From Giardia intestinalis (taxonomy: Eukaryota), in the NCBI GenBank assembly GCA_000002435.2, contig CM018791.1: a stretch of DNA of 64,000 nt. One strand, 5' to 3'. The translations under genes and the position numbers were made by a program. The stretch's first letter is position 1; every line of letters starts with the position of its first letter. This document shows positions 15,301-31,702 of this stretch, piece after piece. The notes below the pieces were generated by a model. That model was not told the origin of the DNA, searched no databases, and worked only from the letters and a program-made list of their open reading frames with translations.

Positions 15301-17567
15301 TGGAGTCACAGCTGGAGACGGCGAAAGCCACATCCACGACTATTATAAAGGGCCTAGAAGATCAGGTGGCACAGTATGAGCAGAGGATTACAGACTCTCA
15401 ACAGGCTACCATGACCTCACAGAGCTCTGATAGACAACTTATCGAGGCCCTCACTGCTGAGCTATTCACAAACAAAGAGAAGGCCAATAAGACCATAAGT
15501 GATCTTACGGACAAGCTGAATGAGTTGCAAGAGAGGCTGAACGAGGAGAAAGAGGCAAGTGTGATCACTGTAACGCGCCTAACCAGCCAAAATAGCAATC
15601 TCATGTCTGCGACATCTAATCTTACCAAAGAATTGGAAATAACAAAAGAGTCTCTCCGCACAGTTACAGAAGAGTTGACCGGACAGATGTCAAAGATACA
15701 GCTTGATGCCAAGGAGCGAGAGCAGCTGCTTCAAAGCAAGCTTGACGAGGTTACAGCTGAAGCCGAAGCAGCTGCTATGCGCCTTCACGAGCAAGTGACT
15801 CAAAAGGACAGCGAGATAAGACAGCTTACCGATGCGCTAGCTGAGTCTGCTCTACATTTGGAGAAATTAGACACAGAGAGCAAGCAAACGATATCACAAC
15901 TAGTCAGCGAGCTGGCGGAGGCACGGGAAACCATCCAGTTCATTGAGCAAAAAAACCAGCGGGATATGTCCGAAATCAGAAACAGCATTGCTACCTTCAA
16001 GGAGACAACTATAGAGTCTCAAAGGCAACACGCTTTAGATCTAGAGCATAAGGACGCAACGATCGCGCAGTTATCCAATGAACTAGAAAGCATCAAGCAA
16101 GCCATGGAATCTGCTAATTCAGCGCATCAAGCAGTGCTTGAAAAGGTAATGAAAGAGTCTGGCGAGTTAGCTCTTCAAAACAGCAAGTTGAAGACTGAAA
16201 TCCGAGAGCTACATGAACAGTTTGCCAAGACTAATGAAGAGGCTCAGCTGGCCTTTCGTGATCAAATGGAAGGAGCTGATGTGAGAATAGGAGAGCTTCG
16301 GGCACAGGTGGAAGCACTTCAAAAGGATCTGGAGAAGATGACGGTTTCGCGAGACGTCCTCTTAGATAAGCTTTCAGCAACGCATACGAAGAACGAGACG
16401 GATTCGGTAAAGCAAGGAGTTCCTGACTACGATGCCCTATTGAGCATGAGCCAAAGTATTCTCAGCAAAGACGAAGAGATCACGACCCTACGCTCACAAG
16501 TAGAGCTCATGAATAGTAAGCTTATAGCCGAAGAGGAAAATAACAAAAGGGTTGTTGACCACCTGCAAGGAGCAATAGAAGTCATGAACACTCAATACGA
16601 GGAGCTCAGAAGCATGAAGGACTCTGTTATAGAACGGTTGACCCGCCAGGTGAGGAGCACCAGCTCACGAATGCCATCCAGACCAGATTCTGCTGCATCC
16701 TCGAGGCGGGGGTCCTCTGTTGTCAACGAAGCAGATCACAATAAGAAAATTCACGCTTTAACAAAGGAATTGAAGGAGGCCAAGGAGATCTTTATGTACA
16801 CTGTTAGTATGAAAAATGATGAGATAGAACGCCTGAAGGAACAGCTAAAAGAAAAGGAGGAATTCATAATGAGCTTGTCTGTGGGCAGTGTGCTTGCAGA
16901 AAGCTCAAGAAGGCCAACCGAGGAGCTTCTAGAGATCAAGCGTGGGATAAAAGAAAGCGCTTTTCACGCAGAGGATATTTCATGGGAACTTGAGGATTTG
17001 CAGCGGCAAAACTTAGAATTACGCGCCGAGATAGCAGCGCTTACAGAGAAGCAGGCCCTTGTTCCCGAAGCGTCAACACCACGAGGAATCACCGATATAA
17101 CTGGGTCCGCTCAGTCTGCTATGTGTAGCGCCTCCATGGTTGACTCGCTTGCAGCGCTTCACGCGGACCTGAAAGCAAAGGATGAAACAATCCTCAGTCT
17201 ACAAGGTAAGCTCGCGATGGCGCAAGAGGAGCGAGAGGCGAAGCTTACCCAATTGTCGAGAGAACTGGAGCAAACAAAAAGAGCTTTGAGGGACAAGGTT
17301 GATGAGATTGTTAACCTATTAGCTATCATAGACCGTGTGAAAACAGAGTATGAGAATTACCGGGCAAGTACCGCCGTTGAGCTTTCCGGGCTCCGAACTG
17401 CGTTAGAAAAGTATCGAGGAAGTAAAGAAATAGATGCTTCTGATGTACGGATAGCTGAGCTGGAGGCAGCACTGGAAGCAGCTAAAGAGCAACTTAGCGA
17501 GGTTCTAAAGACTAAAAATGAAGAAATCGAACAACTAAGCATTCGGCTCGCAGCTAGAAGTATTTAG
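12354..17567 (+). CDS. Giant coiled-coil protein (1737 aa)
   Basis: Uninterrupted ORF with ATG behind tttaaaattttgg. Heptad-rich E/K/L/Q composition throughout. The Ser-rich antisense ORFs are compositional artefacts. Confidence 0.85.
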   Translation: MPAPVYSHQLDRAQPAQNGTHYHPYAKDDNIRIEDLQQPSVQLQGRDNYANLQSMNDDLMACISNSEYTLSSIRRDMQNQARALGTKASVNPELNGTSSPQQLGLSRGASRGVSATTPSRRYHDQADPRPIVRERPMSADSVRSNLGIATTESSDLEDLFMLTPRSYGVLASQQPDFASSQHIQQRGHRVANNKDLSQYYEEIDAVTAFNEGIMREKAVTIDALERNLKTLKVELNIKDREMAAARERIAELVKEVTERDSEIKGLKHKLENVKHNAERFILARDEEIARLAEELEQMDEHYQQKMKLKDSKLHAQHEELVLLTAKDDEIAGLRSKLSVLTEQLEHTENTFKAIVKSKDEQIETLKADVHAKRDYSLELQRIHESLSQVRKDCEEQLHQKDAELSKQREQVETAEKERSLLENEVTSLKAIVEKQEDLVIKLKGQLERSNPDVERLQQELDTLRIESQKAISAKVIEAEELKSKIHTLTTEMLMLPTQEDILEARNEVSKVTASMAAMIKTKDAEILSLRRKLEDYVELSEVQRLKGELTLSKAALADTIVQKTAEIRDLKEEMAILQIDEHASGAPSDGGSFDDKLKDLESSQNALEVSLGTQVELGALKRIYKEAMLARDHQIKTLSQRINDADAELATYRERIAHLESTSKEAPHMQERPATDSASPAIHDLRSELQSVKDAMAAAMVRNMREVATLEHQINQLKGENESLRIKRDDTVETVSIGICCEPEEQNGRVSFEARYAKCSQENERLSNELQLIAQELAKTRTAYSDVMKQLSGLNTELLITRNQASDALNTQALLESTLQEYEREVRTLRGSLESSLQQNREADSVNTKLQESLSESQLYDLQQKLEKSQADLERLRDDYSTMQATKDMVIHKISSEVIHQREMVDLAGEDMNRRLKEAEETVERLNNELLTQKEEFVTVVTDLEQQVEKLSAELQGSRESNEALIARMMRDITGLEKERSDLESQLETAKATSTTIIKGLEDQVAQYEQRITDSQQATMTSQSSDRQLIEALTAELFTNKEKANKTISDLTDKLNELQERLNEEKEASVITVTRLTSQNSNLMSATSNLTKELEITKESLRTVTEELTGQMSKIQLDAKEREQLLQSKLDEVTAEAEAAAMRLHEQVTQKDSEIRQLTDALAESALHLEKLDTESKQTISQLVSELAEARETIQFIEQKNQRDMSEIRNSIATFKETTIESQRQHALDLEHKDATIAQLSNELESIKQAMESANSAHQAVLEKVMKESGELALQNSKLKTEIRELHEQFAKTNEEAQLAFRDQMEGADVRIGELRAQVEALQKDLEKMTVSRDVLLDKLSATHTKNETDSVKQGVPDYDALLSMSQSILSKDEEITTLRSQVELMNSKLIAEEENNKRVVDHLQGAIEVMNTQYEELRSMKDSVIERLTRQVRSTSSRMPSRPDSAASSRRGSSVVNEADHNKKIHALTKELKEAKEIFMYTVSMKNDEIERLKEQLKEKEEFIMSLSVGSVLAESSRRPTEELLEIKRGIKESAFHAEDISWELEDLQRQNLELRAEIAALTEKQALVPEASTPRGITDITGSAQSAMCSASMVDSLAALHADLKAKDETILSLQGKLAMAQEEREAKLTQLSRELEQTKRALRDKVDEIVNLLAIIDRVKTEYENYRASTAVELSGLRTALEKYRGSKEIDASDVRIAELEAALEAAKEQLSEVLKTKNEEIEQLSIRLAARSI

Positions 17568-17572
17568 ACCAC

Positions 17573-18535
17573 TTAAGATATTCCTTCAACCTTATGAGAG
17601 ATGAATCCAGACTTGCAGCATGGACAGACTGCACGATCGGTAACTGATTCATAGACATCTAAGCAGTTACTATGGAATAAGGCACTACAACAAGAAACAG
17701 TTGAGACTGTGCAAGAGTCTTTCTCGGAGTCTGATGCTAGACTGATGAACGGTCCCTTGTATTCAAAGCTTTCAAAGCAGATGGGACATGCCATACTTTG
17801 ACGTTGACGTGTCTTCTCAATAACAGAGATCCAGTTGACTGCACGTGTGGCCATGAATGCTTCGAAGAGATCGTTAGTCTCATCTATTTCCTTTTGCAAG
17901 CGCCCTAACTCGCTGTCTAGCTTAACTCTTTGAGTAAGCAAGTAAGAATTCATATTATCTGCAGCGTGCTCTAGCTCTGCAACCAGAGCCCCTGTACTGC
18001 GCTTGCGAAGGGCTCTGTAACAGCGGCGTCCAAAATATCCCCGTATTGCTGCCTGGATGTCTCTGGCTGCTGAGATGCACATGTATGATTTCAAAAAGGA
18101 AGATTCGCGCATATTAGCAGGTGTCATACAAACTGGGCAACACCACCGAGCCTTCGACTGGGTCATCCAATTTACGAAGCACTCCTTATGAACTGCATGG
18201 CTGCAAGAAGAACATAGCATTTCAGAAGAGCCGAAGCGCTGAAGACATATAGGACAATGCCGTTCTTCCCGGACGATCCACTTTAATTCAGCTCTCCTCC
18301 ACTCTTCATCGGTCAATGGGGGAGGAAGAGTAGACGGCACAAGCTTCATGCGCTCTGCCCGCGTGCTTGGAGCTTGGCTATCGGTTGTAAACCTTGCTTT
18401 TTGGACAACACTGAAGCCTGGCTTCAGACCCATCTTGTGGAGATTATGAGACATCAGCGCTGATGATGCAGTGGCGACAGACCCTGACAAGCTTTTCAGG
18501 AGTTTCTGGGTAGAGAAGGATAAAGTAGGCCGCAT
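17573..18535 (-). CDS. Double RING-finger protein with an IQ motif
   Basis: Contains a RING-H2 pattern (CPICLQRF…CSHAVHKEC…CCPVC), a canonical IQ motif (IQAAIRGYFGRRCYRALRK) and a second C-terminal RING-like Cys cluster (CPICFESF…HSNC…CPCC). Its stop lies 5 bp from the convergent coiled-coil gene's stop. Confidence 0.8.
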   Translation of the reverse strand: MRPTLSFSTQKLLKSLSGSVATASSALMSHNLHKMGLKPGFSVVQKARFTTDSQAPSTRAERMKLVPSTLPPPLTDEEWRRAELKWIVREERHCPICLQRFGSSEMLCSSCSHAVHKECFVNWMTQSKARWCCPVCMTPANMRESSFLKSYMCISAARDIQAAIRGYFGRRCYRALRKRSTGALVAELEHAADNMNSYLLTQRVKLDSELGRLQKEIDETNDLFEAFMATRAVNWISVIEKTRQRQSMACPICFESFEYKGPFISLASDSEKDSCTVSTVSCCSALFHSNCLDVYESVTDRAVCPCCKSGFISHKVEGIS

Positions 18536-19623
18536 GAAATGCCCGATTTGTTAATATTTACTATTACGCAAAATATACAGGAACAAAGATGGTCCCCTTG
18601 AAGAGGCCAGTGAAGAAGATAGTTCCCTCCCTGCCCACAGAGTCTACGTGACGCTACGGGCTCTTATTGCTGAAGTACTTGCTGACTAATTAAACTAAGC
18701 TCTTTGATAGAAAATAGATCATCGCACTACATAGGAGAATTGCATGCACAATAGCCTTACCGGCAGATAGGTAAAAAGCGAATGAAAAATTGTATTGTAC
18801 TATGAGCCAAACTTTATCTTATAAAGATTGAGGAATCCCAGGTAATATATAACGGTTTGAATGCCAGCAAGATTCGCGACCGCAGAGCACACTGCAATCT
18901 GGCGACTGGTTTGGCCATGCCGCTTCTTTATCCGTTAGAAACTCGGCTGGGAGCGACAAAGAGCACGTCGGGAGAACCCGGTGGGAGGGGACAGGCGGGG
19001 CTTTCTGCGCCACGGGGGGAACCACCGCAGGAGGACGTGCAGGCACGCAAGCCAGGCCACAGTAGACACGCGGGCGCCCCTGTAGACCGGGCCGGCAGCA
19101 GGCGTCCGTAGAATCCGCGCCAGAGCCAGCTGCTCAAAAAACTGGGCAGCCCCTGGTCGTGTGCAAGCCTTGCAGAGCACTGCGGCCCCCGACACTCGGC
19201 GACCCCTCTCAGAGCGGAAGACCCCGCGGGCCGCAGGCAGCAGCTCGTCGTCGGCGATGCCCCGAACGAGGGGGACGGCCCCAGCCTGCCCGCCTCCGCA
19301 GAGCTCCGGGTATCTGTAGACAAACCGGGGCTGCGCAGGGTGCGGCTCTCCCTGGCGGCCGAGGGCAGGGGTCCCCGGCAATACCAAAAAACTCCGATCA
19401 ATACATCAGCCCCGGCGCCGCCGTGTGCAAAGCAGTCTGTTCTGTGTGGCGGCCCAAGCCAGCTCGTACTGCGGCGATGGCCCGGGTGAGGGCGCCCTGC
19501 TCGCCCGACGGACCGGGGCAGGCAGGCAACAAACACCCGCTAAAGCTTTTATGCAAGGCCTGTACATATTTAATTTCACATTATTCGTTGGTCTGTTTTT
19601 AGTTTTATCGCTGCTTCTATCGG

Positions 19624-20433
19624 ATGGGCTCTGGGGCAATGACGGCGGAGACGCGCGCCTCCGTTCTGCTCGAGCTCGCGAAGCAGGTCGTCGCTGCCCG
19701 GCGGCTGGGAGAGACGGCCGAGAGCCTCGCGCGGCGGCCGCTGCTCCTCCACCGGCACGTGCTCCGGACGGCCATCGACTGGAAGAAGATCGCCCGCGCC
19801 CTGTCCGAGGACCGGAGCAGGATCTACCACTGGTACCGCGAGACGCACTCGCGGAGCATCCTCAACGTGAAGATGACCGGCGAGGACCGCAGGGCCATCA
19901 AGGCGATGATCATCGCCGGGGTCAGGGACCGGAGCGTCCTGGGCCCGGACTTCTACCGCAGGGTCCACGAGCGCTTCGGGGCGAAGTATCCGCGCCAGGA
20001 GCTGCGGATGACGTACAACAACGCGCTCCGCACCCAGGACGTCCGCGCCGCCCTGGAGGAGCACGGGGTGGTGCTGCCGCGCCGCACATACGGCCCGAGG
20101 GCGGCCAGGCAGGAGGAGGAGGCATCTCCTGTGGCGGCCACTCCCCCGCCCCCCTGCGTTTTTGGTTGCGCCGCGCCTCCGCTGGTGCCGCCCGTCGGGG
20201 GGCCGGTCTTTGTGGTCCCGGGCGCGGTCTCTGCGCTTCTGCCCCCGCACGCGCCGGGGTGCCTCGTCCTCGCCCTCCCACCCGGGGTCGTTCCTGGGCC
20301 CGGCGTCCTCCCGCTCCAGACGGGCCAGGGCCTCCTTGGGCCGCCCGTTGCCTTCGCGTGCGTGCCATGCTTCCCCCCTGCGGGCTACGGGGGCGTCCCT
20401 GGGTGCGCTGATGCGAGCCCCAGTAAGGGTTGA
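19624..20433 (+). CDS. Arm gene, copy 1: Myb/SANT-like helix-turn-helix protein with a proline-rich C-terminal tail (269 aa)
   Basis: The ATG is preceded by the only A/T-rich block in this part of the arm (19560-19623, catatttaatttcacattattcg…). Codon third positions are almost all G/C in this frame only. About 40% identity by eye over ~100 aa with the gene at 53268..54242 (IDWKKIARAL..YHWYRETH / MTGEDRRAI / RMTYNNALRTQDVRAAL). In both, exactly 50 residues precede the conserved W. Confidence 0.7.
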   Translation: MGSGAMTAETRASVLLELAKQVVAARRLGETAESLARRPLLLHRHVLRTAIDWKKIARALSEDRSRIYHWYRETHSRSILNVKMTGEDRRAIKAMIIAGVRDRSVLGPDFYRRVHERFGAKYPRQELRMTYNNALRTQDVRAALEEHGVVLPRRTYGPRAARQEEEASPVAATPPPPCVFGCAAPPLVPPVGGPVFVVPGAVSALLPPHAPGCLVLALPPGVVPGPGVLPLQTGQGLLGPPVAFACVPCFPPAGYGGVPGCADASPSKG

Positions 20434-20546
20434 GGACTGGAGAACCCGGCTTGCTTGACGATTGTCGAAGAGTGGCCGGCAGGAACAGCCGATGGTTGGA
20501 TCCCTGATCAGTGACGAGACAGTTATATCTAGAGCGTGTAGCATGC

Positions 20547-21262
20547 TCAACCACGGCACAGCGCAGGGCCCACCAGACACAGGCTACGACGGTCTGGATG
20601 TCGCGCAACCCGCATTCTGCGCATTGCTGAAGAGACCACACACAGCAGACGAAGGCAGGGCTCTCCCATGTGCCCAGACGACTCGAACACCGCGGTCTGG
20701 GCCAACGATCTACCAGACAGGCCCGTCCGGTAACAGGCGACTGAATGCTCTCTGGGCCGTGAGCTAAAGCTGATGTGCAGCTGGCCGGCCACGACATTCA
20801 CCCTGGCTGGCCCTCTGTCTTCACGCGCCGACACGCCAAGGAGCTGTAGGGAAGTCGTGTGCTGTCTTGGCAGGTATATTATTACCTCCATGTATGCACC
20901 CTGGATGCGGCCACCATAGCACAGCTGCATCTCTGATCGTCCTGTACACGCCTCCTGGCACGAGTAGGTGCGCAGGAGGGGGTGCACTGCCCACCGCCGA
21001 GAAATGGATGAGCTCCCCTGCTCAGGAGCCGACGACCGCCAGCCATGCCCAACGAGGTCCCCTGCAAGGAGGCCTGCTGAGCCAGCTCTTCCAGCGAGCC
21101 GTGTATCTGGAAGAGCTCCGCGTTGAATGGCTCCTTGATTAAGGAAGCCGGAGTCCAGCGCGATGTGACGCCTGTCCGTCTAAGGCTGAGACTTCGGTCT
21201 GGTGCTTGCTGCTGAGCGAGCATTAAATGAGGCTGGCCAAAGAAGCGGCTCAGGGCTTTCAT
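20547..21262 (-). pseudogene. Possible frameshifted gene in the arm (two same-strand overlapping ORFs)
   Basis: ORF 20882..21298 (ATG at 21262, MKALSRFFGQ…) and ORF 20547..20987 overlap on the same strand in different frames. Both have coding-like composition. No homology recognised. Mirrored exactly at 27823..28538. Confidence 0.25.
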
Positions 21263-23312
21263 AGCTCTGTGTCTTCTTGTTCTGTTCGACTGAAACACCT
21301 GATCTCAGTGCTGACTGTTGGGTCTCCTCCTGTGGACGTGGTCCGGAAGTCTCACAGAGGACCTGTTTTTTTGTAATTTCTTCTAAGACGAAGGTAAGTC
21401 GTTCTATAGGATTAGGACTACATCTGTAGAAGCACAGCCCCGGTTAAAGCAGTAACATACAATTCGCAGATGCGTAGAATGCTTGCAGGAGAAAGCAGTA
21501 AGGAAAGATATCTCGATCATGACATAGACGTGAGACAGCACCACAGGCTGCCCAAGCAACCGGTCTGGATACGAGGTGCGGCATGATTACCCTTATCTAT
21601 CCTTTGCCAGGTGAGGGAATTCGACATAGAGCCTAGTCACCCTAACGGTCAGAACCAAAGGCAAAAGCTAGACCTGTGGTGTGTTGGCAAGTGATGGACA
21701 CAAGGGCATCCCTGGATGGACTGTTGCATGAGAGGGCGAAGGCCCATAGAGATGGGTTGCTCTCAGCACCTGCAGTGGGCAGCTTGCTCCGCGGCCAACA
21801 AGTTGTTGGGTCAGAAACAAGCACGGACGATGCCTGTCAGATGGGTCCGAGCCAGTCACCCGATGCCCCCTACGGGCCTCGTCCAACCGACACTCTTGAT
21901 TCTTGTCGAATAGCTCAGACAGACTGGGGAGAGGAAGGACTACCAGTCACCAGAGCTTGCTGCAGTGGGAGAGCCGGGCTTGGCTCGTCCCCGTCTTCAC
22001 ACAAGAGCGGGGAAGTGGGTTTACTTGCGGGACCCTTGGGCCGCGGCTGCAGGGGGGCTCAGTACTAGAGCGCTAGAAATAGCTGGCTGTCGAAGTAAAT
22101 CGTCGCTTTCCGGGGATGACATCTTCCTCGACCAGGGCAGCAGAAGAGACCCTCAATGCATCTGCCGGTGCTGGGGTGCGTCCTACCCGTCAGCGGGGCT
22201 TCATGGCTCCACTGGAAAGCCCAATCGTCCGCTTCTTGCTGTGCTCAGAGGACAGAGAACTAGGCAGGCGTAGTCCCATCCGCCCACCGGAGGGCTATGA
22301 GCGCCCCCGTCGTCCCATTGAGCAGCACCAGGCGCAGAAGAGGTCTGCCGGAAATGCGCCAGATGCAGTCAACGCTTTTCTGGGTGTAGTGTTAACAGAA
22401 TCACACGCTACGACGCGTCCCAGACAGGCTCCACCTGGCAGCGGCGCCCCAGAGGCGGGCCCCGAGGGACAAAACATTTCTGGCCCTGCCCCTGCTCCAA
22501 TGCGAGCGGCCCGCGGACAGAGCCGAGGACGGGGGCCAGTGCTCGGCCTCCTGCTGGTGCGGTGGCGCCGGGAGACCACCGGACCATCGACTCGGCAGCG
22601 GCAACCGGTGGAACGCCCTGGGCTGCTGCTGTGCCCATGCGCCTGGAGCGCGCCGCAGCAGCCCGGGATGGGTCCGCAGACAGGCGTGCCGCCCCAGCCG
22701 TCCCGGGGGCCGGCTCCTCGTGGCGGGCGCTCCTGCTCCCTTTGACTTTTCAAATGGAGAACGCAGTTATGGATCCTAGTTCTGCTGCAGAAGGTGCCTT
22801 ATGAGACGCAGCACAGCCACACCAAGCGGTATCGGGGCTGAACACTCCTTGGGACGGGCTCCTGGCGCATCTGAGAGACGCTCGTTGCTGTGCACTGCCT
22901 CTCGGGCCTTGGATGCACGTTGTGCAGAGCTGCAGGAGTCGCCCTTGCAGTTGTCAGTGGGCCGTTGATGGAGCCATTGAAAGCTCTGGACCGCTACTGG
23001 GCAGTACTGTCCCAGTGCACGTGTGGCAGCTTTGGCTCGCACTGGATGGTCCGTACAGATTGCAACGGAGCCACGAGGTGCATTAGTATGACATACACAT
23101 TGAGACAGTTGCAGTTCTATTCGGTCCAATCCACCTCCTTCTGGCCCTGTGCCGAGATTGCAGATTGCAAGTAGTGTTCGCGATAGACCCGGTGAGTGTT
23201 GATTCCATCAGCGCCTGTGGTCAACGTGTGCCAGAAGGATCAATCAACTGCATCAATCGACGCGGATTGACTGATGTACCGCGAGTATGTTCCTACCAAT
23301 CTATCAATCGGG

Positions 23313-23319
23313 CAATGTT
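23313..23319 (+). promoter_or_regulatory. vsp initiator-like context (CAATGTT) around the start codon
   Basis: The sequence caATGtt fits the PyA-ATG-TT initiator context that I recall being reported for many vsp genes. The assignment is from memory of the vsp literature and is not independently testable here. Confidence 0.35.
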
Positions 23320-25534
23320 TGGCAGTTTTGTTCTCGCGGGGGTACTCGTCCAGATTGCATGGGCAGGAAAAGCAACAGAGCGCGCGCAAGAAGCTCAATG
23401 CGCAGATAACACTAATTGCGCAGCAGAAGCATGCAACGTTCTGATCGGTGGTAAATTGTATTGCTCTCGATGTAACACAGGATTTGTTCCTATCAATGGA
23501 CAATGTGCAGACAAAGAAGGTGCAACAGATAAGTGCAAAGATGGCTCCGGAGGCGATACAGCTGATCAGACCTGTGGACAGTGCGCCGAGCAGACTTTCA
23601 TGTACAAGGGCGGCTGTTACGAAGCAGCCCAGCAGCCCGGACAGACCATGTGTCAGGCGGCAGATGCTGGAGTATGCACACAAGCCGCGCAAGGATACTT
23701 CGTGCCGCCGGGCGCAGACGCCTCTCACCAATCGGTTATACCATGTGGAGACGAAGAGGAAATAACGGTTAAAAACGATAAAAAGTACAAGGGCGTGCTG
23801 CACTGCACTCGGTGTAACGCTCCCACAGAAGCAGCAGATGCTAACGCCAAGGCCGCCACATGCACTGCGTGCCAGGCAGATAGGTATCTGAAGACAGCCA
23901 AGGACCAAGCCACCTCCTGCGTGACAGAGCAAGAGTGCACCGGCACCGAAGGGTTCTTCGCGAAAAATGGCGGCACCAAAACCTGTGAGGCGTGCGCTGA
24001 AACATGCAAGACCTGTAAGACCGAGGCTGCGAAGTGCACCTCTTGCAAGGACGACAAGCCGTACCTGAAGAAGGATAATGGCAGCGACACTGGCACGTGC
24101 GTCACCGAAGCTGAGTGCAAGACTGGAAACACCCACTACCCCGACGACACTGAGCCGAAGACGTGCAAGACGTGCGCCGAGGGGACCTCCGACGGGTGTG
24201 CGACGTGCGAGAAGGGCGCCGATGGAGCAGTCGCCTGCAAGACGTGCGGAAACCAGAAGAAGGTCCAGCCAAACAAGAAGGGGTGCGTTGAGAACTGCCC
24301 CTCGAACTCCAACGATAAGAAGACCCCTGGCACCTGTGAGTGCGTTGAGGGCTACGTTCCCGAGGAGGCCGGCACCGGGTGCACGAAGAAGCCCGACCCC
24401 CCTGCGGCGCCGTGCAACACCCCCGGCTGCAAGACGTGCAGTGAGCCGAAGACAAGCAAGGAGGTGTGCACAGAGTGCGAAGACCCCAAGGCCCTCACGC
24501 CCACGGGCCAGTGCATCTACGGTTGTGAGCACCTGGAAGGCTACTACGAGGGCACCAGCGAGGGGGGCAAGAAGGCCTGCAAGAAGTGCGAGGTCGAGAA
24601 CTGCCTCCTGTGCAACGAAAACGGACAGTGCGAGACCTGCAAGGACGGATACTACAAGAAAGAAACCGCCTGTGCCAAGTGCGATACCTCGTGCAAGACG
24701 TGCGCGAACGGGGAGCCCAACGGGTGCACGAGCTGCGAGGCTAAGAAGGCCCTCAGCTACGAAGGAGAGGGCAACACGGGGACGTGCAAATCAGAATGCA
24801 AACCGGGTACTAACAACTGCGAGAAGTGCGAGCTGACAGTCGATGGCACGGCCTACTGCTCCAAGTGCAAGGACGCCAACCAGTTCCCGCAGAACGGAGT
24901 CTGCTCGGCGGCGGCCGGAAAGGCTATTACGTGCACTACCAAAGGGACTGGTGTCTGTGACAAATGCGCCAACGGGCTTCTTCGGATGAACGGAGGCTGC
25001 TATGAGACGACCAAGTTCCCTGGAAAGAGCGTCTGTGAGGAAGCAGCATCGGCTGGGGATACCTGCCAAGTAGAGGCTCCAGGCTATCATCTTAATAACA
25101 ATGACCTTGTGACTTGCTCGGCCGGATGTAAGACGTGCACTAGTAACACCGTGTGTACTGAATGCATGGATGGGTATGCAAAGACTGATAATAAGTGCAC
25201 AAAGTGTGCCACTGGCTGTGCTACTTGTGCAGGATCCGCCTCAAATTGCGACACTTGCAGCACTGGGTACTACAAGTATAAGAACGCCTGTGTGTCTTGC
25301 ACGGAAAGCAACAGTGATAAGACTATCACCGGCGTCGCCAACTGCGCCAACTGCGCTCCTCCACTCAACAATAAAGGGTCTGTCCTCTGCTACCTCGTGC
25401 AGAGTGGCGAGAACACTAACAAAAGTGGTCTCAGCGCAGGCGCCATCGCGGGCATCGCTGTTGCTGTCATCATTGTTGTCGGCGGCCTCGTCGGTTTCCT
25501 TTGCTGGTGGTTTATGTGCAGAGGCAAGGCGTAG
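23315..25534 (+). CDS. Variant-specific surface protein (VSP), 739 aa
   Basis: Signal peptide MFGSFVLAGVLVQIAWAG, about 28 CXXC motifs and two GGCY motifs (KGGCYEA, NGGCYET). C-terminal TM helix followed by the invariant cytoplasmic tail CRGKA (…GFLCWWFMCRGKA*). The track start at 23165 is a TTG; the signal peptide begins at ATG 23315. Confidence 0.95.
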   Translation: MFGSFVLAGVLVQIAWAGKATERAQEAQCADNTNCAAEACNVLIGGKLYCSRCNTGFVPINGQCADKEGATDKCKDGSGGDTADQTCGQCAEQTFMYKGGCYEAAQQPGQTMCQAADAGVCTQAAQGYFVPPGADASHQSVIPCGDEEEITVKNDKKYKGVLHCTRCNAPTEAADANAKAATCTACQADRYLKTAKDQATSCVTEQECTGTEGFFAKNGGTKTCEACAETCKTCKTEAAKCTSCKDDKPYLKKDNGSDTGTCVTEAECKTGNTHYPDDTEPKTCKTCAEGTSDGCATCEKGADGAVACKTCGNQKKVQPNKKGCVENCPSNSNDKKTPGTCECVEGYVPEEAGTGCTKKPDPPAAPCNTPGCKTCSEPKTSKEVCTECEDPKALTPTGQCIYGCEHLEGYYEGTSEGGKKACKKCEVENCLLCNENGQCETCKDGYYKKETACAKCDTSCKTCANGEPNGCTSCEAKKALSYEGEGNTGTCKSECKPGTNNCEKCELTVDGTAYCSKCKDANQFPQNGVCSAAAGKAITCTTKGTGVCDKCANGLLRMNGGCYETTKFPGKSVCEEAASAGDTCQVEAPGYHLNNNDLVTCSAGCKTCTSNTVCTECMDGYAKTDNKCTKCATGCATCAGSASNCDTCSTGYYKYKNACVSCTESNSDKTITGVANCANCAPPLNNKGSVLCYLVQSGENTNKSGLSAGAIAGIAVAVIIVVGGLVGFLCWWFMCRGKA

Positions 25535-25549
25535 ACTTAGATAGTAAAT
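25535..25549 (+). terminator. Extended vsp poly(A) signal ACTTAGATAGTAAAT
   Basis: It lies immediately after the TAG stop (25532-25534). It matches the vsp consensus ACTYAGRTAGTRAAY, which contains the general Giardia poly(A) signal AGTRAAY. Confidence 0.8.
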
Positions 25550-27822
25550 GCGTCGATTCGCCTTCTTAAGGCGTGGAACTCTCGTTACGTCCACACTGCA
25601 AATGTGCTTGACGATTTCTAACATCTGGATTTTGTATAGCAGTCTGGAGTCGTGTGTGTGACTTTACTTTTATTCCACACTTCCAATAGTTTGCCACTGG
25701 ACTTCGCCTGCAAATGCAGCCTAGGAGTGCATGAATAAATAAACTTACATGTCTTCTTGGTAGAGCAAAGCAGACCCCTACTTGAGGACTTGGACCCGCT
25801 ACTCTATGCTTGTATCTGACGTAGTCGCACTTAGCCAAGGTGCACACCCTACTATCACTCGATAGCTCACCCTCTCGTTGTCTTAAAGGAGCAGCTCTTA
25901 GACTGCTGCCCAGTTGACTTTACCAAGTACTTGCTTATTTAAGCGAACTGTGAACGAACTTTCTGAATACCAGGTGAACCCTTATATCTAAAGACTACGA
26001 CACGTTCCTCATGTTCCAGTTCTACTGTAGTGACCTGTGAGGATGGTTGTATCCAATCTCAGTCCTCCAGCATATAGAGTATACACTAGTAACCATTTGT
26101 ACTTCATAACCTGTCTTTGTCTTCGAACGTGACTGAGCGACCGGATTATTCGCATGGGTTTAGCCCATATCTAAATAAGATCGAGAAGAGGCCACAAGAA
26201 TACTTTCTATAGCAAAGCTGGAGCTGCTAGCTACATATGCAACAGTTAGCCCCGCACCAGCAATCGATGCAACGGGGATGTGTGCCCACCCGAGCAGTAC
26301 ACAGCTGGCTACCCGTAATTATGCTCTCCATTTGAAAAGTCAAAGGGAGCAGGAGCGCCCGCCACGAGGAGCCGGCCCCCGGGACGGCTGGGGCGGCACG
26401 CCTGTCTGCGGACCCATCCCGGGCTGCTGCGGCGCGCTCCAGGCGCATGGGCACAGCAGCAGCCCAGGGCGTTCCACCGGTTGCCGCTGCCGAGTCGATG
26501 GTCCGGTGGTCTCCCGGCGCCACCGCACCAGCAGGAGGCCGAGCACTGGCCCCCGTCCTCGGCTCTGTCCGCGGGCCGCTCGCATTGGAGCAGGGGCAGG
26601 GCCAGAAATGTTTTGTCCCTCGGGGCCCGCCTCTGGGGCGCCGCTGCCAGGTGGAGCCTGTCTGGGACGCGTCGTAGCGTGTGATTCTGTTAACACTACA
26701 CCCAGAAAAGCGTTGACTGCATCTGGCGCATTTCCGGCAGACCTCTTCTGCGCCTGGTGCTGCTCAATGGGACGACGGGGGCGCTCATAGCCCTCCGGTG
26801 GGCGGATGGGACTACGCCTGCCTAGTTCTCTGTCCTCTGAGCACAGCAAGAAGCGGACGATTGGGCTTTCCAGTGGAGCCATGAAGCCCCGCTGACGGGT
26901 AGGACGCACCCCAGCACCGGCAGATGCATTGAGGGTCTCTTCTGCTGCCCTGGTCGAGGAAGATGTCATCCCCGGAAAGCGACGATTTACTTCGACAGCC
27001 AGCTATTTCTAGCGCTCTAGTACTGAGCCCCCCTGCAGCCGCGGCCCAAGGGTCCCGCAAGTAAACCCACTTCCCCGCTCTTGTGTGAAGACGGGGACGA
27101 GCCAAGCCCGGCTCTCCCACTGCAGCAAGCTCTGGTGACTGGTAGTCCTTCCTCTCCCCAGTCTGTCTGAGCTATTCGACAAGAATCAAGAGTGTCGGTT
27201 GGACGAGGCCCGTAGGGGGCATCGGGTGACTGGCTCGGACCCATCTGACAGGCATCGTCCGTGCTTGTTTCTGACCCAACAACTTGTTGGCCGCGGAGCA
27301 AGCTGCCCACTGCAGGTGCTGAGAGCAACCCATCTCTATGGGCCTTCGCCCTCTCATGCAACAGTCCATCCAGGGATGCCCTTGTGTCCATCACTTGCCA
27401 ACACACCACAGATCTAGCTTTTGCCTTTGGTTCTGACCGTTAGGGTGACTAGGCTCTATGTCGAATTCCCTCACCTGGCAAAGGATAGATAAGGGTAATC
27501 ATGCCGCACCTCGTATCCAGACCGGTTGCTTGGGCAGCCTGTGGTGCTGTCTCACGTCTATGTCATGATCGAGATATCTTTCCTTACTGCTTTCTCCTGC
27601 AAGCATTCTACGCATCTGCGAATTGTATGTTACTGCTTTAACCGGGGCTGTGCTTCTACAGATGTAGTCCTAATCCTATAGAACGACTTACCTTCGTCTT
27701 AGAAGAAATTACAAAAAAACAGGTCCTCTGTGAGACTTCCGGACCACGTCCACAGGAGGAGACCCAACAGTCAGCACTGAGATCAGGTGTTTCAGTCGAA
27801 CAGAACAAGAAGACACAGAGCT

Positions 27823-28538
27823 ATGAAAGCCCTGAGCCGCTTCTTTGGCCAGCCTCATTTAATGCTCGCTCAGCAGCAAGCACCAGACCGAAGTCTCAGC
27901 CTTAGACGGACAGGCGTCACATCGCGCTGGACTCCGGCTTCCTTAATCAAGGAGCCATTCAACGCGGAGCTCTTCCAGATACACGGCTCGCTGGAAGAGC
28001 TGGCTCAGCAGGCCTCCTTGCAGGGGACCTCGTTGGGCATGGCTGGCGGTCGTCGGCTCCTGAGCAGGGGAGCTCATCCATTTCTCGGCGGTGGGCAGTG
28101 CACCCCCTCCTGCGCACCTACTCGTGCCAGGAGGCGTGTACAGGACGATCAGAGATGCAGCTGTGCTATGGTGGCCGCATCCAGGGTGCATACATGGAGG
28201 TAATAATATACCTGCCAAGACAGCACACGACTTCCCTACAGCTCCTTGGCGTGTCGGCGCGTGAAGACAGAGGGCCAGCCAGGGTGAATGTCGTGGCCGG
28301 CCAGCTGCACATCAGCTTTAGCTCACGGCCCAGAGAGCATTCAGTCGCCTGTTACCGGACGGGCCTGTCTGGTAGATCGTTGGCCCAGACCGCGGTGTTC
28401 GAGTCGTCTGGGCACATGGGAGAGCCCTGCCTTCGTCTGCTGTGTGTGGTCTCTTCAGCAATGCGCAGAATGCGGGTTGCGCGACATCCAGACCGTCGTA
28501 GCCTGTGTCTGGTGGGCCCTGCGCTGTGCCGTGGTTGA
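27823..28538 (+). pseudogene. Mirror copy of the possible frameshifted arm gene
   Basis: ORFs 27787..28203 and 28098..28538 are identical in translation to 20882..21298 and 20547..20987. Confidence 0.25.
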
Positions 28539-28651
28539 GCATGCTACACGCTCTAGATATAACTGTCTCGTCACTGATCAGGGATCCAACCATCGGCTGT
28601 TCCTGCCGGCCACTCTTCGACAATCGTCAAGCAAGCCGGGTTCTCCAGTCC

Positions 28652-29461
28652 TCAACCCTTACTGGGGCTCGCATCAGCGCACCCAGGGACGCCCCCGTAG
28701 CCCGCAGGGGGGAAGCATGGCACGCACGCGAAGGCAACGGGCGGCCCAAGGAGGCCCTGGCCCGTCTGGAGCGGGAGGACGCCGGGCCCAGGAACGACCC
28801 CGGGTGGGAGGGCGAGGACGAGGCACCCCGGCGCGTGCGGGGGCAGAAGCGCAGAGACCGCGCCCGGGACCACAAAGACCGGCCCCCCGACGGGCGGCAC
28901 CAGCGGAGGCGCGGCGCAACCAAAAACGCAGGGGGGCGGGGGAGTGGCCGCCACAGGAGATGCCTCCTCCTCCTGCCTGGCCGCCCTCGGGCCGTATGTG
29001 CGGCGCGGCAGCACCACCCCGTGCTCCTCCAGGGCGGCGCGGACGTCCTGGGTGCGGAGCGCGTTGTTGTACGTCATCCGCAGCTCCTGGCGCGGATACT
29101 TCGCCCCGAAGCGCTCGTGGACCCTGCGGTAGAAGTCCGGGCCCAGGACGCTCCGGTCCCTGACCCCGGCGATGATCATCGCCTTGATGGCCCTGCGGTC
29201 CTCGCCGGTCATCTTCACGTTGAGGATGCTCCGCGAGTGCGTCTCGCGGTACCAGTGGTAGATCCTGCTCCGGTCCTCGGACAGGGCGCGGGCGATCTTC
29301 TTCCAGTCGATGGCCGTCCGGAGCACGTGCCGGTGGAGGAGCAGCGGCCGCCGCGCGAGGCTCTCGGCCGTCTCTCCCAGCCGCCGGGCAGCGACGACCT
29401 GCTTCGCGAGCTCGAGCAGAACGGAGGCGCGCGTCTCCGCCGTCATTGCCCCAGAGCCCAT
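28652..29461 (-). CDS. Arm gene, copy 2: Myb/SANT-like protein with proline-rich tail (269 aa)
   Basis: The translation is identical to 19624..20433. The same A/T-rich leader is mirrored at 29462-29525. Confidence 0.7.
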   Translation of the reverse strand: MGSGAMTAETRASVLLELAKQVVAARRLGETAESLARRPLLLHRHVLRTAIDWKKIARALSEDRSRIYHWYRETHSRSILNVKMTGEDRRAIKAMIIAGVRDRSVLGPDFYRRVHERFGAKYPRQELRMTYNNALRTQDVRAALEEHGVVLPRRTYGPRAARQEEEASPVAATPPPPCVFGCAAPPLVPPVGGPVFVVPGAVSALLPPHAPGCLVLALPPGVVPGPGVLPLQTGQGLLGPPVAFACVPCFPPAGYGGVPGCADASPSKG

Positions 29462-30913
29462 CCGATAGAAGCAGCGATAAAACTAAAAACAGACCAACGA
29501 ATAATGTGAAATTAAATATGTACAGGCCTTGCATAAAAGCTTTAGCGGGTGTTTGTTGCCTGCCTGCCCCGGTCCGTCGGGCGAGCAGGGCGCCCTCACC
29601 CGGGCCATCGCCGCAGTACGAGCTGGCTTGGGCCGCCACACAGAACAGACTGCTTTGCACACGGCGGCGCCGGGGCTGATGTATTGATCGGAGTTTTTTG
29701 GTATTGCCGGGGACCCCTGCCCTCGGCCGCCAGGGAGAGCCGCACCCTGCGCAGCCCCGGTTTGTCTACAGATACCCGGAGCTCTGCGGAGGCGGGCAGG
29801 CTGGGGCCGTCCCCCTCGTTCGGGGCATCGCCGACGACGAGCTGCTGCCTGCGGCCCGCGGGGTCTTCCGCTCTGAGAGGGGTCGCCGAGTGTCGGGGGC
29901 CGCAGTGCTCTGCAAGGCTTGCACACGACCAGGGGCTGCCCAGTTTTTTGAGCAGCTGGCTCTGGCGCGGATTCTACGGACGCCTGCTGCCGGCCCGGTC
30001 TACAGGGGCGCCCGCGTGTCTACTGTGGCCTGGCTTGCGTGCCTGCACGTCCTCCTGCGGTGGTTCCCCCCGTGGCGCAGAAAGCCCCGCCTGTCCCCTC
30101 CCACCGGGTTCTCCCGACGTGCTCTTTGTCGCTCCCAGCCGAGTTTCTAACGGATAAAGAAGCGGCATGGCCAAACCAGTCGCCAGATTGCAGTGTGCTC
30201 TGCAGCCGGGGATCTTGCTGGCATCTCACGCGACCGGGCTCTGGGTGTGCCTGCTCAACAGTAGCTACCTCATCCACAGAGTGCTGATGCAGATATTATG
30301 CGCTACGTATCAGTGACCACAGGGGCACCGATAGACAGGGTCTCAGCCTCAGTGCACAACGAAGGTTATCAAGCATAGCGAGGCTTACATACTGAGCATG
30401 GGTCCGTGCCCCGCGTGGTCTTCTTAAGAACTAGTGCATGAGTGTTTGTGAGACGATGCTATCCGTATGAGGCGGGCTATCCGTCGTACGCGAAGTGCAG
30501 TACGGCAGAAGTGGGTGATGCAGGAACCAGAGGGGGTGCTTCAGCACATCAGTCGTCGGCCCCTCTGCCTTCTGTCACGCCTGATGGACTCTCCTCTACT
30601 ATCGCAACTCAGTCGTGGTTGTCTGAGGAGAGGACTAGGTATTCAGTAGACAATGGAATCGCGTGGCCTGGACGCGATTTCGTGATGGCCAACACGGGTT
30701 ATCAGGCTGGCTGTGGTCTGGATATGTGGTACAGCTTCCTTCACTCAAGCAGGGGTTAACACCTGCACTAATACAGATCTACAATAAGACATACACCATG
30801 CCCAGTACAGTTGAAAGATAAAACAGAAAGATATTATATTAAACGATAGTTATATTTGCCGTCAATTGTTATTAATAGAGCTAACACCCCTGGTCAAAAA
30901 AACGTTCGCTGTG

Positions 30914-31702
30914 ATGTCCCGGCATTGGGTCCACACCCCGTCAAACACGATAGTATGGGCTGCAAACAGCATGGTTCCTGGCGAAGAGCTGCCTGGAGTT
31001 CCGAATACCTCTCTTCCTGGCCAAGGAGTTGTTCGGGTGGACGAATCTTTCGTCGCGAGTGTCGTGGGAAACATGAAGCAGGTTGGCAAGATAGTGTCTG
31101 TTCAGCCATCGTGTTTACACATCTACGAACCTGTCACAGCAGATGTCGTCCTTGGGCGCGTCGTTCGTCTTCTGCCGAATAAGTGGGTCCTGGACATAGG
31201 TGCAATACAGCATGCTACTCTCCACATTGATAACTTGAACATACCGGGGATCCAGCGGGTAAGGGACACTGCAGATGAAAGCAATATGCGCCAGTGGCTT
31301 GACGTGGATCAGCTTATTTCGTGCGAGGTAAAGCAGGGCTATGCACTTCTTACTCGGAGTGCACAGTTCGGGGTGTTGAACCATGGCGTACTAGTGAAGG
31401 TGCCTCCTTGCGCAGTGGGCCCATCGACTACCGCGTTTGCAAACCTGGACTCTCTGAATGTGCATGTTATTCTCGGCAGGAATGGATGGATTTGGATTTC
31501 TGAGATGCGGAATCCCAGTGATACTAGAGAGACAGTTCGAGACAGTGCATCTCCGACTCCTTCCAAGGAGCAACTGCAAGCGATATCCCATGTAGCGCAA
31601 CTTTTACAGACCATGTGTGCCGCTGGAGAGCGTGTTACTCCTGCGTCCATCCTTTCAGCAAGCAAAAGGCATCTCGAACCCGGATGCTCTCCTAAGACTT
31701 AG
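30914..31702 (+). CDS. RRP4: Exosome complex component RRP4-like (S1 + KH domains)
   Basis: The layout matches RRP4/EXOSC2: N-terminal …MVPGEELPG…, an S1 region (ADVVLGRVVRLLPNKWVLDIGAIQHATLHIDNLNIPG…QLISCEVKQ), then LLTRSAQFGVLNHGVLVKVPP…VILGRNGWIWISE. The track start at 30866 is TTG; the ATG at 30914 follows an A-rich leader. Confidence 0.75.
   Translation: MSRHWVHTPSNTIVWAANSMVPGEELPGVPNTSLPGQGVVRVDESFVASVVGNMKQVGKIVSVQPSCLHIYEPVTADVVLGRVVRLLPNKWVLDIGAIQHATLHIDNLNIPGIQRVRDTADESNMRQWLDVDQLISCEVKQGYALLTRSAQFGVLNHGVLVKVPPCAVGPSTTAFANLDSLNVHVILGRNGWIWISEMRNPSDTRETVRDSASPTPSKEQLQAISHVAQLLQTMCAAGERVTPASILSASKRHLEPGCSPKT

What the first reader, a model, noticed from the sequence alone, without database searches (positions are those of the whole stretch)
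21673..27412. Arms differ at one internal position, and identity ends abruptly at both borders
The only internal difference I found is C at 21673 versus A at 27412 (G expected). It shows up as V/I and G/D changes in two mirrored ORF pairs. At the outer ends, the last 21 bp (18861-18881 / 30204-30224) carry 5 mismatches before similarity disappears. At the inner ends, identity stops exactly at 22760/26325. The next ~85 bp show only patchy inverted similarity, for example cggggctgaac at 22833-22843 versus 26245-26254, offset by 2 nt. A jump from ~100% to roughly 60% or lower is what concerted evolution confined to a conversion tract would produce. A simple recent duplication would have no diverged continuation. 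I did not compare every base, so synonymous-like differences in singly covered stretches could have escaped.
Basis: seen in the sequence. Interest (0 to 1): 0.45.

Follow-up and report, generated by a model that had tools for sequence, protein, structure and literature searches.

The report
Gene-converted inverted duplication around Giardia VSP
Two 3.9-kb mirror-image copies of a GC-rich segment flank a surface-antigen (VSP) gene in Giardia intestinalis WB, and comparison with other isolates shows they are an old duplication kept almost identical by gene conversion, which is a known kind of structure in this parasite.

Summary
Arms 18861-22774 and 26311-30224 are inverted copies with 3878 of 3879 matching bases in their interior. 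The outer edge is degenerate over 21 bp (4 mismatches, not 5) and the inner edge over 14 bp (6 mismatches, all transitions).

The window is Giardia intestinalis WB. Each arm carries one copy of a 269-aa orphan gene (GL50803_0060974 / d60974). That gene lies in a 1.5-kb GC-rich core belonging to a dispersed multi-copy family. The centre holds one complete VSP gene.

Family homology runs about 46 bp past the outer border of arm 2 but stops exactly at 18861 on arm 1. The abrupt borders are therefore duplication end points, and arm 1 is the derived copy.

Both arm-flank junctions are shared with assemblage AII isolates, so the duplication predates the AI/AII split. WB arms differ from AII arms by 4-9%. 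DH arms are identical to each other, while another AII sample has arms 7.5% apart with a mosaic pattern. Identical inverted pairs with abrupt divergence points are already documented in WB, so interest is modest.

The parts
18861..22774 (+). Arm 1 of the inverted duplication. It is the derived, truncated copy and abuts the RING-finger gene flank.
   Evidence: The junction at 18861 is shared by WB, DH (L003), N591 (L001) and k141 (L004). Family homology stops exactly here.
26311..30224 (-). Arm 2 of the inverted duplication. It is the older copy and abuts the RRP4 flank.
   Evidence: The core next to RRP4 is also present in DH (L018) and P15 (L019). Homology to paralogues continues to about 30270.
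18882..22760 (.). Homogenised interior of arm 1 (partner 26325-30203): 3878/3879 matches.
18861..18881 (.). Outer degenerate edge (partner 30204-30224): 17/21 matches. The arm 1 version equals the DH kinesin-locus paralogue, while the arm 2 version resembles AII arms.
22761..22774 (.). Inner degenerate edge (partner 26311-26324): 8/14 matches, and all 6 mismatches are transitions.
21673..21673 (.). The single internal difference (partner 27412). Arm 1 has C, as does isolate N591. Arm 2 has the derived T (A on the + strand).
18861..20393 (+). Multi-copy GC-rich core unit in arm 1, made of a 680-bp 68% GC leader, an AT-rich promoter-like stretch and the ORF. The arm 2 copy is 28692-30270.
19624..20433 (+). 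269-aa orphan gene GL50803_0060974. The N-terminal 150 aa form a conserved helical, Myb/homeodomain-like domain and the C-terminus is disordered and Pro-rich.
28652..29461 (-). Identical second copy of the 269-aa gene (GL50803_00d60974), convergent with the first.
20434..22760 (+). Non-core part of arm 1 (59% GC) with no annotated gene and no Pfam hit on any ORF. It is only 68-71% similar to the DH paralogue over 20903-22090.
22775..26310 (.). Unique centre between the arms.
23315..25534 (+). Complete VSP gene ('VSP with INR', KAE8302587.1), 739 aa. It has a signal peptide and a CRGKA tail, and AGTAAAT follows the stop codon.
17573..18535 (-). Left unique flank: RING-finger gene.
30914..31702 (+). 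Right unique flank: exosome RRP4 gene.

Best explanation
This is an old inverted segmental duplication on the 1.97-Mb chromosome of Giardia intestinalis WB.

Origin. A copy of a dispersed GC-rich unit sat next to RRP4, together with about 2.4 kb of adjoining sequence; this is arm 2. The unit carries a 269-aa Myb-like orphan gene. It was duplicated in inverted orientation next to the RING-finger gene, giving arm 1, which lacks the outermost ~46 bp of the unit. The two copies enclose a 3.5-kb segment holding one VSP gene.

Maintenance. Since then the arms have repeatedly exchanged sequence by intrachromosomal non-allelic gene conversion, and the core has also exchanged with other family copies. 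In WB the arms are homogenised over 18882-22760.

Borders. Similarity ends abruptly because the duplicated segment ends there. The last 21 bp (outer) and 14 bp (inner) of homology have diverged. I infer this is because conversion tracts need homology on both sides and rarely reach the extreme ends.

Consequences. A crossover between the arms would invert the VSP-bearing centre; this is inferred and only weakly indicated. The high GC content is plausibly a by-product of biased conversion, also inferred.
For: - Identity of the locus: the arm ORF equals GL50803_0060974/d60974 of WB. The gene order by consecutive accessions is RING, 60974, VSP, d60974, RRP4.
- Arm identity and edges.
- Arm 2 is the older copy. 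Paralogues at another locus (L017 in DH, L016 in P15) align up to 46 bp beyond 30224 but only from 18861 on arm 1. The core next to RRP4 is also present in DH and P15.
- The duplication predates the AI/AII split. Identical L-flank/arm 1 and R-flank/arm 2 junctions occur in WB, DH and ERZ27317378, and the arm 1 junction also occurs in ERZ28528424.
- Arms are isolate-specific. WB arms are 99.1-100% alike and DH arm 1 versus arm 2 is 100% over 461 bp, yet WB versus DH is 91.3-91.8%. WB versus N591 is 95.8% in the core and 93.8% in the non-core arm, against 98.7% for flanking genes.
- Homogenisation is variable and tracts are mosaic. k141 arm 1 and arm 2 differ at 16/213 sites. N591 arm 1 equals k141 arm 1 in columns 0-100 and k141 arm 2 in columns 100-213. 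DH arms equal k141 arm 2 in columns 0-100.
- The whole family evolves in concert. The two P15 copies are 97% alike but only 73-79% like assemblage A copies.
- Edge mismatches are 9/10 transitions, matching the local ts:tv of 6-9:1. This is what diverged homologous sequence shows, not chance matches.
- Published context: conversion regions in Giardia are GC-enriched, have a median length of 3.3 kb and are VSP-enriched (PMC12669663). Identical inverted pairs with abrupt divergence points exist in WB (PMC2996952). Duplications make up 6.9% of the WB genome (PMC7000408).
Against: - Only WB shows both complete arms. Other isolates come from short-read or 454 assemblies that give 213-1533 bp of an arm, and two of them are metagenome assemblies.
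- The DH right-flank contig leaves the WB structure after the 1.5-kb core and may be chimeric.
- The only contig that crosses a whole arm (L001) may reflect an arbitrary assembler path, so the inverted orientation of the centre is weak evidence.
- Short-read polishing of the WB assembly could have erased small real differences between the arms.
- No S/W asymmetry was seen between WB and N591 arm alleles (92 versus 102), so GC-biased conversion is not demonstrated.
Confidence: 0.7

Rival explanations
1. A single recent event in the WB/AI lineage copied one arm wholesale over the other. Candidates are break-induced replication, fold-back repair or one very long conversion tract. On this reading the identity reflects one event rather than ongoing concerted evolution.
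For: Identity is uniform across 3.9 kb with one derived transition. Nothing inside WB shows multiple tracts. AI is described as nearly clonal (PMC12669663).
Against: Other isolates show different states of homogenisation and mosaic tracts, so exchange between the arms is recurrent at the species level. This rival differs from the best explanation only in the number of events on the WB branch.
Confidence: 0.15
2. An assembly or polishing artefact: the inverted repeat, or its near-perfect identity, was created by the PacBio assembly or by short-read polishing of WB.
For: The older WB assembly lacked these two gene identifiers, since 60974/d60974 are new IDs. Identical pairs are known to have terminated contigs (PMC2996952). 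Multi-mapping reads can homogenise repeats during polishing.
Against: Both arm-flank junctions are recovered independently in DH and ERZ27317378. WB-like short-read contigs stop 16-129 bp inside arm 1, as expected for a true repeat. Each arm has its own unique flank and its own 21-bp edge.
Confidence: 0.06
3. A mobile element: a composite transposon or a large element with terminal inverted repeats that carries the VSP gene as cargo.
For: The core is multi-copy and dispersed, with at least 6 WB paralogues above 90% identity. The ORF domain resembles Myb and Tc3-transposase HTH folds.
Against: No transposase, reverse transcriptase or other Pfam domain was found on any arm ORF. Copies sit at orthologous positions in assemblages A and E. 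There is no target-site duplication, because the arm 2 flank is family sequence and the arm 1 flank is unique. The arms extend 2.4 kb beyond the shared core.
Confidence: 0.04
4. A programmed invertible switch that controls VSP expression by flipping the centre.
For: In contig L001 the arm attached to the left flank continues into the opposite end of the centre.
Against: No recombinase is encoded. The arms are kilobases long rather than short recombination sites. The orientation in L001 could be an arbitrary assembler choice. VSP switching is reported as epigenetic or RNAi-based (PMC2996952 abstract; PMC12669663).
Confidence: 0.03

Closest known systems
Identical inverted gene pairs of Giardia WB (14 vsp pairs in Adam et al. 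2010, PMC2996952; 'd' duplicate genes and 19 VSP pairs in Xu et al. 2020, PMC7000408)
   Same: Two identical ORFs lie in inverted orientation in the same genome. Their flanks are nearly identical up to a point of abrupt divergence, and a few kb of unique DNA lies between the repeats (3.5 kb here; 2.2-3.8 kb between ORFs in the vsp pairs). The repeat broke older and short-read assemblies.
   Different: Here the duplicated gene is a Myb-like orphan gene and the VSP sits, single-copy, in the spacer. The two ORFs are 8.2 kb apart. The published pairs were interpreted as recent duplications, whereas this one is shown to predate the AI/AII split.
Concerted evolution of large inverted repeats by intramolecular gene conversion (plastid inverted repeats and human Y-chromosome palindrome arms; from general knowledge)
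   Same: Arm-to-arm identity far exceeds orthologue identity between lineages. Identity is confined to the duplicated segment. A unique spacer can invert by crossover.
   Different: The arms are much smaller. They also exchange sequence with dispersed paralogues. Homogenisation is incomplete in some isolates.
Gene-conversion regions reported between Giardia AI and AII (PMC12669663)
   Same: GC-enriched, median length ~3.3 kb and enriched for VSP loci. This locus is 59-72% GC, 3.9 kb long and flanks a VSP.
   Different: That study infers exchange between sub-assemblages. Here the exchange is between paralogous arms within one chromosome, a situation that could mimic such signals.

Membership tests
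Giardia identical inverted gene pairs (Adam 2010 / Xu 2020) | Two identical ORFs in inverted orientation | tested here: met
   The ORFs at 19624-20433 (+) and 28652-29461 (-) give one protein sequence held under two accessions, KAE8302586.1 and KAE8302588.1.
Giardia identical inverted gene pairs (Adam 2010 / Xu 2020) | Flanks nearly identical up to a point of abrupt divergence | tested here: met
   The interior matches at 3878/3879, and matching falls to chance level beyond the 21-bp and 14-bp edges.
Giardia identical inverted gene pairs (Adam 2010 / Xu 2020) | The paired genes are vsp genes separated by 2-4 kb of non-coding DNA | tested here: not met
   The paired gene has no VSP domain. The spacer between the arms is 3.5 kb but contains a complete VSP gene. 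The paired ORFs are 8.2 kb apart.
Concerted evolution by non-allelic gene conversion | Paralogues within a genome are more alike than orthologues between lineages | tested here: met
   WB arms are 99.97% alike and DH arms 100% alike (461 bp), while WB versus DH is 91.3-91.8%. The P15 copies are 97% alike but 73-79% like assemblage A copies.
Concerted evolution by non-allelic gene conversion | The duplication is older than the lineages compared (shared breakpoints) | tested here: met
   The same arm 1 junction at 18861 and the same arm 2 junction occur in AI and AII isolates.
Concerted evolution by non-allelic gene conversion | Mosaic tracts with variable end points | tested here: met
   Informative-site table: N591 arm 1 switches from the k141 arm 1 type to the k141 arm 2 type near column 100. 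DH arms are converted up to the edge, and WB arms up to 21 bp from it. Caveat: two of the samples are metagenome assemblies.
Concerted evolution by non-allelic gene conversion | GC-biased outcome | tested here: inconclusive
   The arms are 59-72% GC against 39-50% in neighbouring intergenic DNA, and the ORF has GC3 of 0.89. No S/W asymmetry was found between WB and N591 alleles.
Transposon with terminal inverted repeats / composite transposon | Encoded transposase or reverse transcriptase, and target-site duplication | tested here: not met
   No Pfam hit on any arm ORF. The two outer flanks share no direct repeat, and one of them is family sequence.
Site-specific invertible DNA switch | Short inverted recombination sites plus a dedicated recombinase | tested here: not met
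   The arms are 3.9 kb long. No recombinase domain was found in the arms or the centre.
Myb/SANT-like DNA-binding proteins (for the arm ORF) | Sequence match to a Myb/SANT profile or a clear structural match | tested here: inconclusive

The most novel reading that the evidence does not exclude
The structure could be functional for antigenic variation. The two convergent copies of the Myb-like gene point into the VSP from both sides. Read-through transcription would give sense and antisense VSP RNA, or a transcript spanning both arms would give a long hairpin. Either would feed the RNAi-type silencing of VSPs. Arm-to-arm recombination would flip or replace the VSP cassette. More broadly, the GC-rich Myb-like units might be recombination hot spots that seed VSP-locus rearrangements across Giardia lineages.
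Probability: 0.06. Interest if true: 0.7.

Novelty: new member of a known kind. Interest (0 to 1): 0.3.

Why it matters
Identical inverted gene pairs in Giardia WB were called a cryptic observation and assumed to be recent duplications (PMC2996952). This locus gives a concrete case in which the breakpoints are shared between sub-assemblages and the arms are isolate-specific. Such pairs can therefore be old and maintained by gene conversion.

This bears on three practical points. The first is how VSP-associated regions diversify. The second is the interpretation of recombination and gene-conversion signals between AI and AII, because paralogous exchange can mimic them. The third is the reliability of short-read assemblies and SNP calls in these regions. 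Beyond that, the finding is an expected property of large inverted repeats.

Tried and rejected
- Megablast of 18500-30600 against the plasmid, E. coli and phage collections found no match. The bacterial mobile-element idea was dropped once Pfam identified a Giardia VSP.
- Rfam at gathering and E-value thresholds, and tRNA search, found nothing. The GC-rich arms are not degenerate rDNA.
- Pfam on 20 arm and centre ORFs found only the VSP.
- Extension alignments beyond both borders scored at chance.
- Exact look-ups of the WB paralogues (P0001, P0023) and of the window ORF were not on record, so the other WB copies could not be read.
- A metagenome scan with a conserved 20-mer at the inner border returned one unrelated contig.
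- A test for S/W allele asymmetry as a sign of GC-biased conversion found none.
- The two giant flanking coiled-coil genes share only compositional similarity.
- A profile search of the ORF domain found 72 clusters but no informative domain in the distant members.
Full report
**Observation**

A repeat search finds one inverted pair, 18861-22772 and 26313-30224, separated by 3540 nt. An ungapped in-register comparison gives the following.
- The interior, 18882-22760, matches its partner at 3878 of 3879 positions. The single difference is 21673 C against 27412 A.
That is 17/21 matches, with P about 1e-7.
- Past 22760 the next 14 bp keep 8 matches, and all 6 mismatches are transitions. Random 14-mer pairs from the centre reach this at a frequency of 0.0004.

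Beyond these edges in-register matching is 71/300 and 76/300, which is chance. Local alignments of 100, 300 and 600 bp extensions do not exceed shuffled controls at the inner ends, nor at the outer ends for 100 and 300 bp. The 600-bp outer extension scores above the shuffles (z 4.1; 3 of 500 shuffles reach it). That alignment pairs segments about 330 bp out of register, far from the border, and I did not follow it up.

The V/I and G/D differences are real. They lie in 60-72-aa ORFs with TTG or GTG starts, and consecutive GenBank accessions leave no annotated gene there.

**What the locus is**

The arms are 59-72% GC in a ~49% GC background. Searches against plasmid, E. coli and phage collections found nothing. 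Pfam identifies the long ORF in the centre as a Giardia variant-specific surface protein, E = 2.6e-153.

Exact-sequence look-ups place the window on the 1,973,847-bp chromosome of G. intestinalis WB C6.
- The arm ORF is GL50803_0060974 / GL50803_00d60974.
- The centre gene is 'VSP with INR', KAE8302587.1.
- The flanks are a RING-finger gene and RRP4.
- The accession order RING (…585), 60974 (…586), VSP (…587), d60974 (…588), RRP4 (…589) shows that nothing else is annotated in the arms.

The VSP runs 23315-25534. It has a signal peptide and the CRGKA tail, and AGTAAAT follows the stop codon. The two arm ORFs converge on it.

**The arm gene**

The 269-aa ORF belongs to a protein family with no Pfam domain; every source-named hit is from Giardia. 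It has at least six WB paralogues above 90% identity, 19 clusters at 90% identity, and 72 clusters at 50% identity among 1.8 billion representatives.
- The N-terminal 150 residues are strongly conserved, with 41 invariant positions.
- They fold confidently as a helical domain, pLDDT about 90.
- There is no Pfam or PDB sequence match.
- An AT-rich stretch lies immediately upstream of the ATG.

I treat 'Myb-like DNA-binding protein' as a lead, not a classification.

**Why the borders are abrupt**

A paralogous copy at a different locus (kinesin / TCP1 / Rer1 neighbourhood) is present in DH (L017) and P15 (L016). It aligns to the window from exactly 18861 on arm 1. On arm 2 it continues 25-46 bp beyond the border, to about 30270. 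High similarity to this paralogue covers only 18861-20393, a 1.5-kb 'core'. The remainder of the arm is 68-71% similar to it or unrelated. The core next to RRP4 is also found in DH (L018) and P15 (L019).

Arm 2 is therefore the older, complete family member. Arm 1 is an inverted copy of [core minus ~46 bp, plus 2.4 kb of adjoining sequence]. The loss of similarity at both borders marks the ends of the duplicated segment, not the limit of a conversion tract within longer homology.

**Old duplication, isolate-specific arms**

The left-flank/arm 1 junction is base-for-base the same in WB, DH (L003) and two ENA assemblies (L001 from ERZ28528424; L004 from ERZ27317378). The right-flank/arm 2 junction is the same in WB, DH (L018) and ERZ27317378 (L020). 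The inverted duplication therefore predates the AI/AII split.

The arms nevertheless behave as follows.
- WB arms are virtually identical to each other.
- WB arms differ from AII arms by 8-10% in the outer 461 bp. Along the whole arm the difference is 4.2% in the core and 6.2% in the non-core part. For comparison, it is 1.3% in flanking genes and 3.4-4.5% in neighbouring intergenic DNA.
- DH arm 1 and arm 2 are 100% identical over 461 bp, including the terminal 21 bp.
- In ERZ27317378 the arms differ at 16 of 213 sites.

The informative sites are mosaic.
- N591 arm 1 equals k141 arm 1 over the first 100 columns (0 differences).
- N591 arm 1 equals k141 arm 2 over the next 113 columns (0 differences).
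- DH arms equal k141 arm 2 in the first 100 columns.

This pattern is what recurrent arm-to-arm conversion with variable end points produces. The family as a whole behaves the same way. The two P15 copies, at different loci, are 97% identical to each other but only 73-79% identical to the assemblage A copies at the orthologous loci.

**The edges**

Nine of the ten edge mismatches are transitions. This agrees with the local transition:transversion ratio of 6-9:1, so the edges are truly homologous sequence that has diverged by about 19% and 43%. They are the only parts of the duplication that have escaped homogenisation in WB. I infer this is because conversion needs homology on both sides.

The single interior difference is a derived C-to-T in arm 2, because N591 has C.

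**Caveats**

- Only WB provides both full arms.
- The DH right-flank contig leaves the WB arrangement after the core and runs into an unrelated 2253-aa gene. Its ORF has the C-terminus of WB GL50803_00103981, which lies on another chromosome. The contig may therefore be chimeric through the repeat. For that reason I rely only on the outer ~460 bp, most of which lies within roughly one read length of the unique flank. The read length is my assumption about the DH sequencing, not something I checked.
- L001 crosses a whole arm and enters the centre from the opposite end, 26324 towards 25322. This is what a crossover between the arms would give, but an assembler could also choose that path arbitrarily.
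- Polishing could hide small differences between the WB arms.
- GC-biased conversion is plausible given the GC content, and published Giardia conversion regions are GC-rich, about 3.3 kb long and VSP-enriched (PMC12669663). The allele asymmetry test was nevertheless negative.

**Comparison with what is known**

Adam et al. described 14 identical inverted vsp pairs in WB. Their flanks are nearly identical up to abrupt divergence points and they are separated by 2-4 kb. The authors regarded them as probably recent duplications and 'cryptic' (PMC2996952). Xu et al. report that 6.9% of the WB assembly is duplicated and label duplicate genes with 'd', as for this gene (PMC7000408).

The present structure has the same architecture with the roles exchanged: a non-VSP gene is duplicated and the VSP sits in the spacer. 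It is a new member of a known kind. The added value is evidence that such a pair is ancient and maintained by conversion. I found no paper naming these gene identifiers or describing concerted evolution of Giardia inverted duplicates.

**Verdict**

The feature is real but ordinary for this genome.

Noticed in passing
L019 8358-9354 and L016 9197-10192 (P15): Two copies of the core at different loci in assemblage E are 97% identical to each other. They are only 73-79% identical to assemblage A copies at the orthologous loci. This indicates concerted evolution across dispersed family members, not only between the two arms.
   Followed up: partly
L018 1-7828 (DH contig AHGT01000033.1): In DH the core next to RRP4 is followed by an unrelated 2253-aa gene instead of the rest of the arm and the VSP. 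The ORF there (277 aa) has the C-terminus of WB GL50803_00103981, which is on another WB chromosome. This is either an assembly chimera through the repeat or a real rearrangement.
   Followed up: partly
L019 4024-4214 and 8176-8359 (P15): A 190-bp inverted repeat (91% identity) directly abuts the truncated core and encloses a zinc-finger gene. A VSP gene lies further upstream, so the same region carries inverted repeats and a VSP in assemblage E.
   Followed up: no
window 19624-20076 (and 29009-29461 on the - strand): The N-terminal 150 aa of the arm ORF is a well-conserved helical domain with weak structural similarity to Myb, SANT, homeodomain and Tc3 HTH folds. It defines an orphan family of 72 clusters at 50% identity that has no Pfam model.
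   Followed up: partly
window 18861-19540: A 680-bp, 68% GC leader upstream of the arm ORF belongs to the conserved multi-copy core but has no annotated gene. A 202-aa GTG-start ORF on the minus strand was called by an automatic gene caller in L001. Its role is unknown.
   Followed up: no
window 30225-30526: WB-like short-read contigs from the right flank (L014, L015) stop about 300 bp or more outside arm 2 rather than at its border. This suggests a further repeated or hard-to-assemble stretch between arm 2 and RRP4.
   Followed up: no
window 12354-17567 and 32828-37690: Two giant coiled-coil genes with strong A-over-T skew lie on either side of the repeat in the same orientation. BLASTP shows only coiled-coil compositional similarity (26% identity over 305 aa), so they are not a duplicated pair.
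   Followed up: yes
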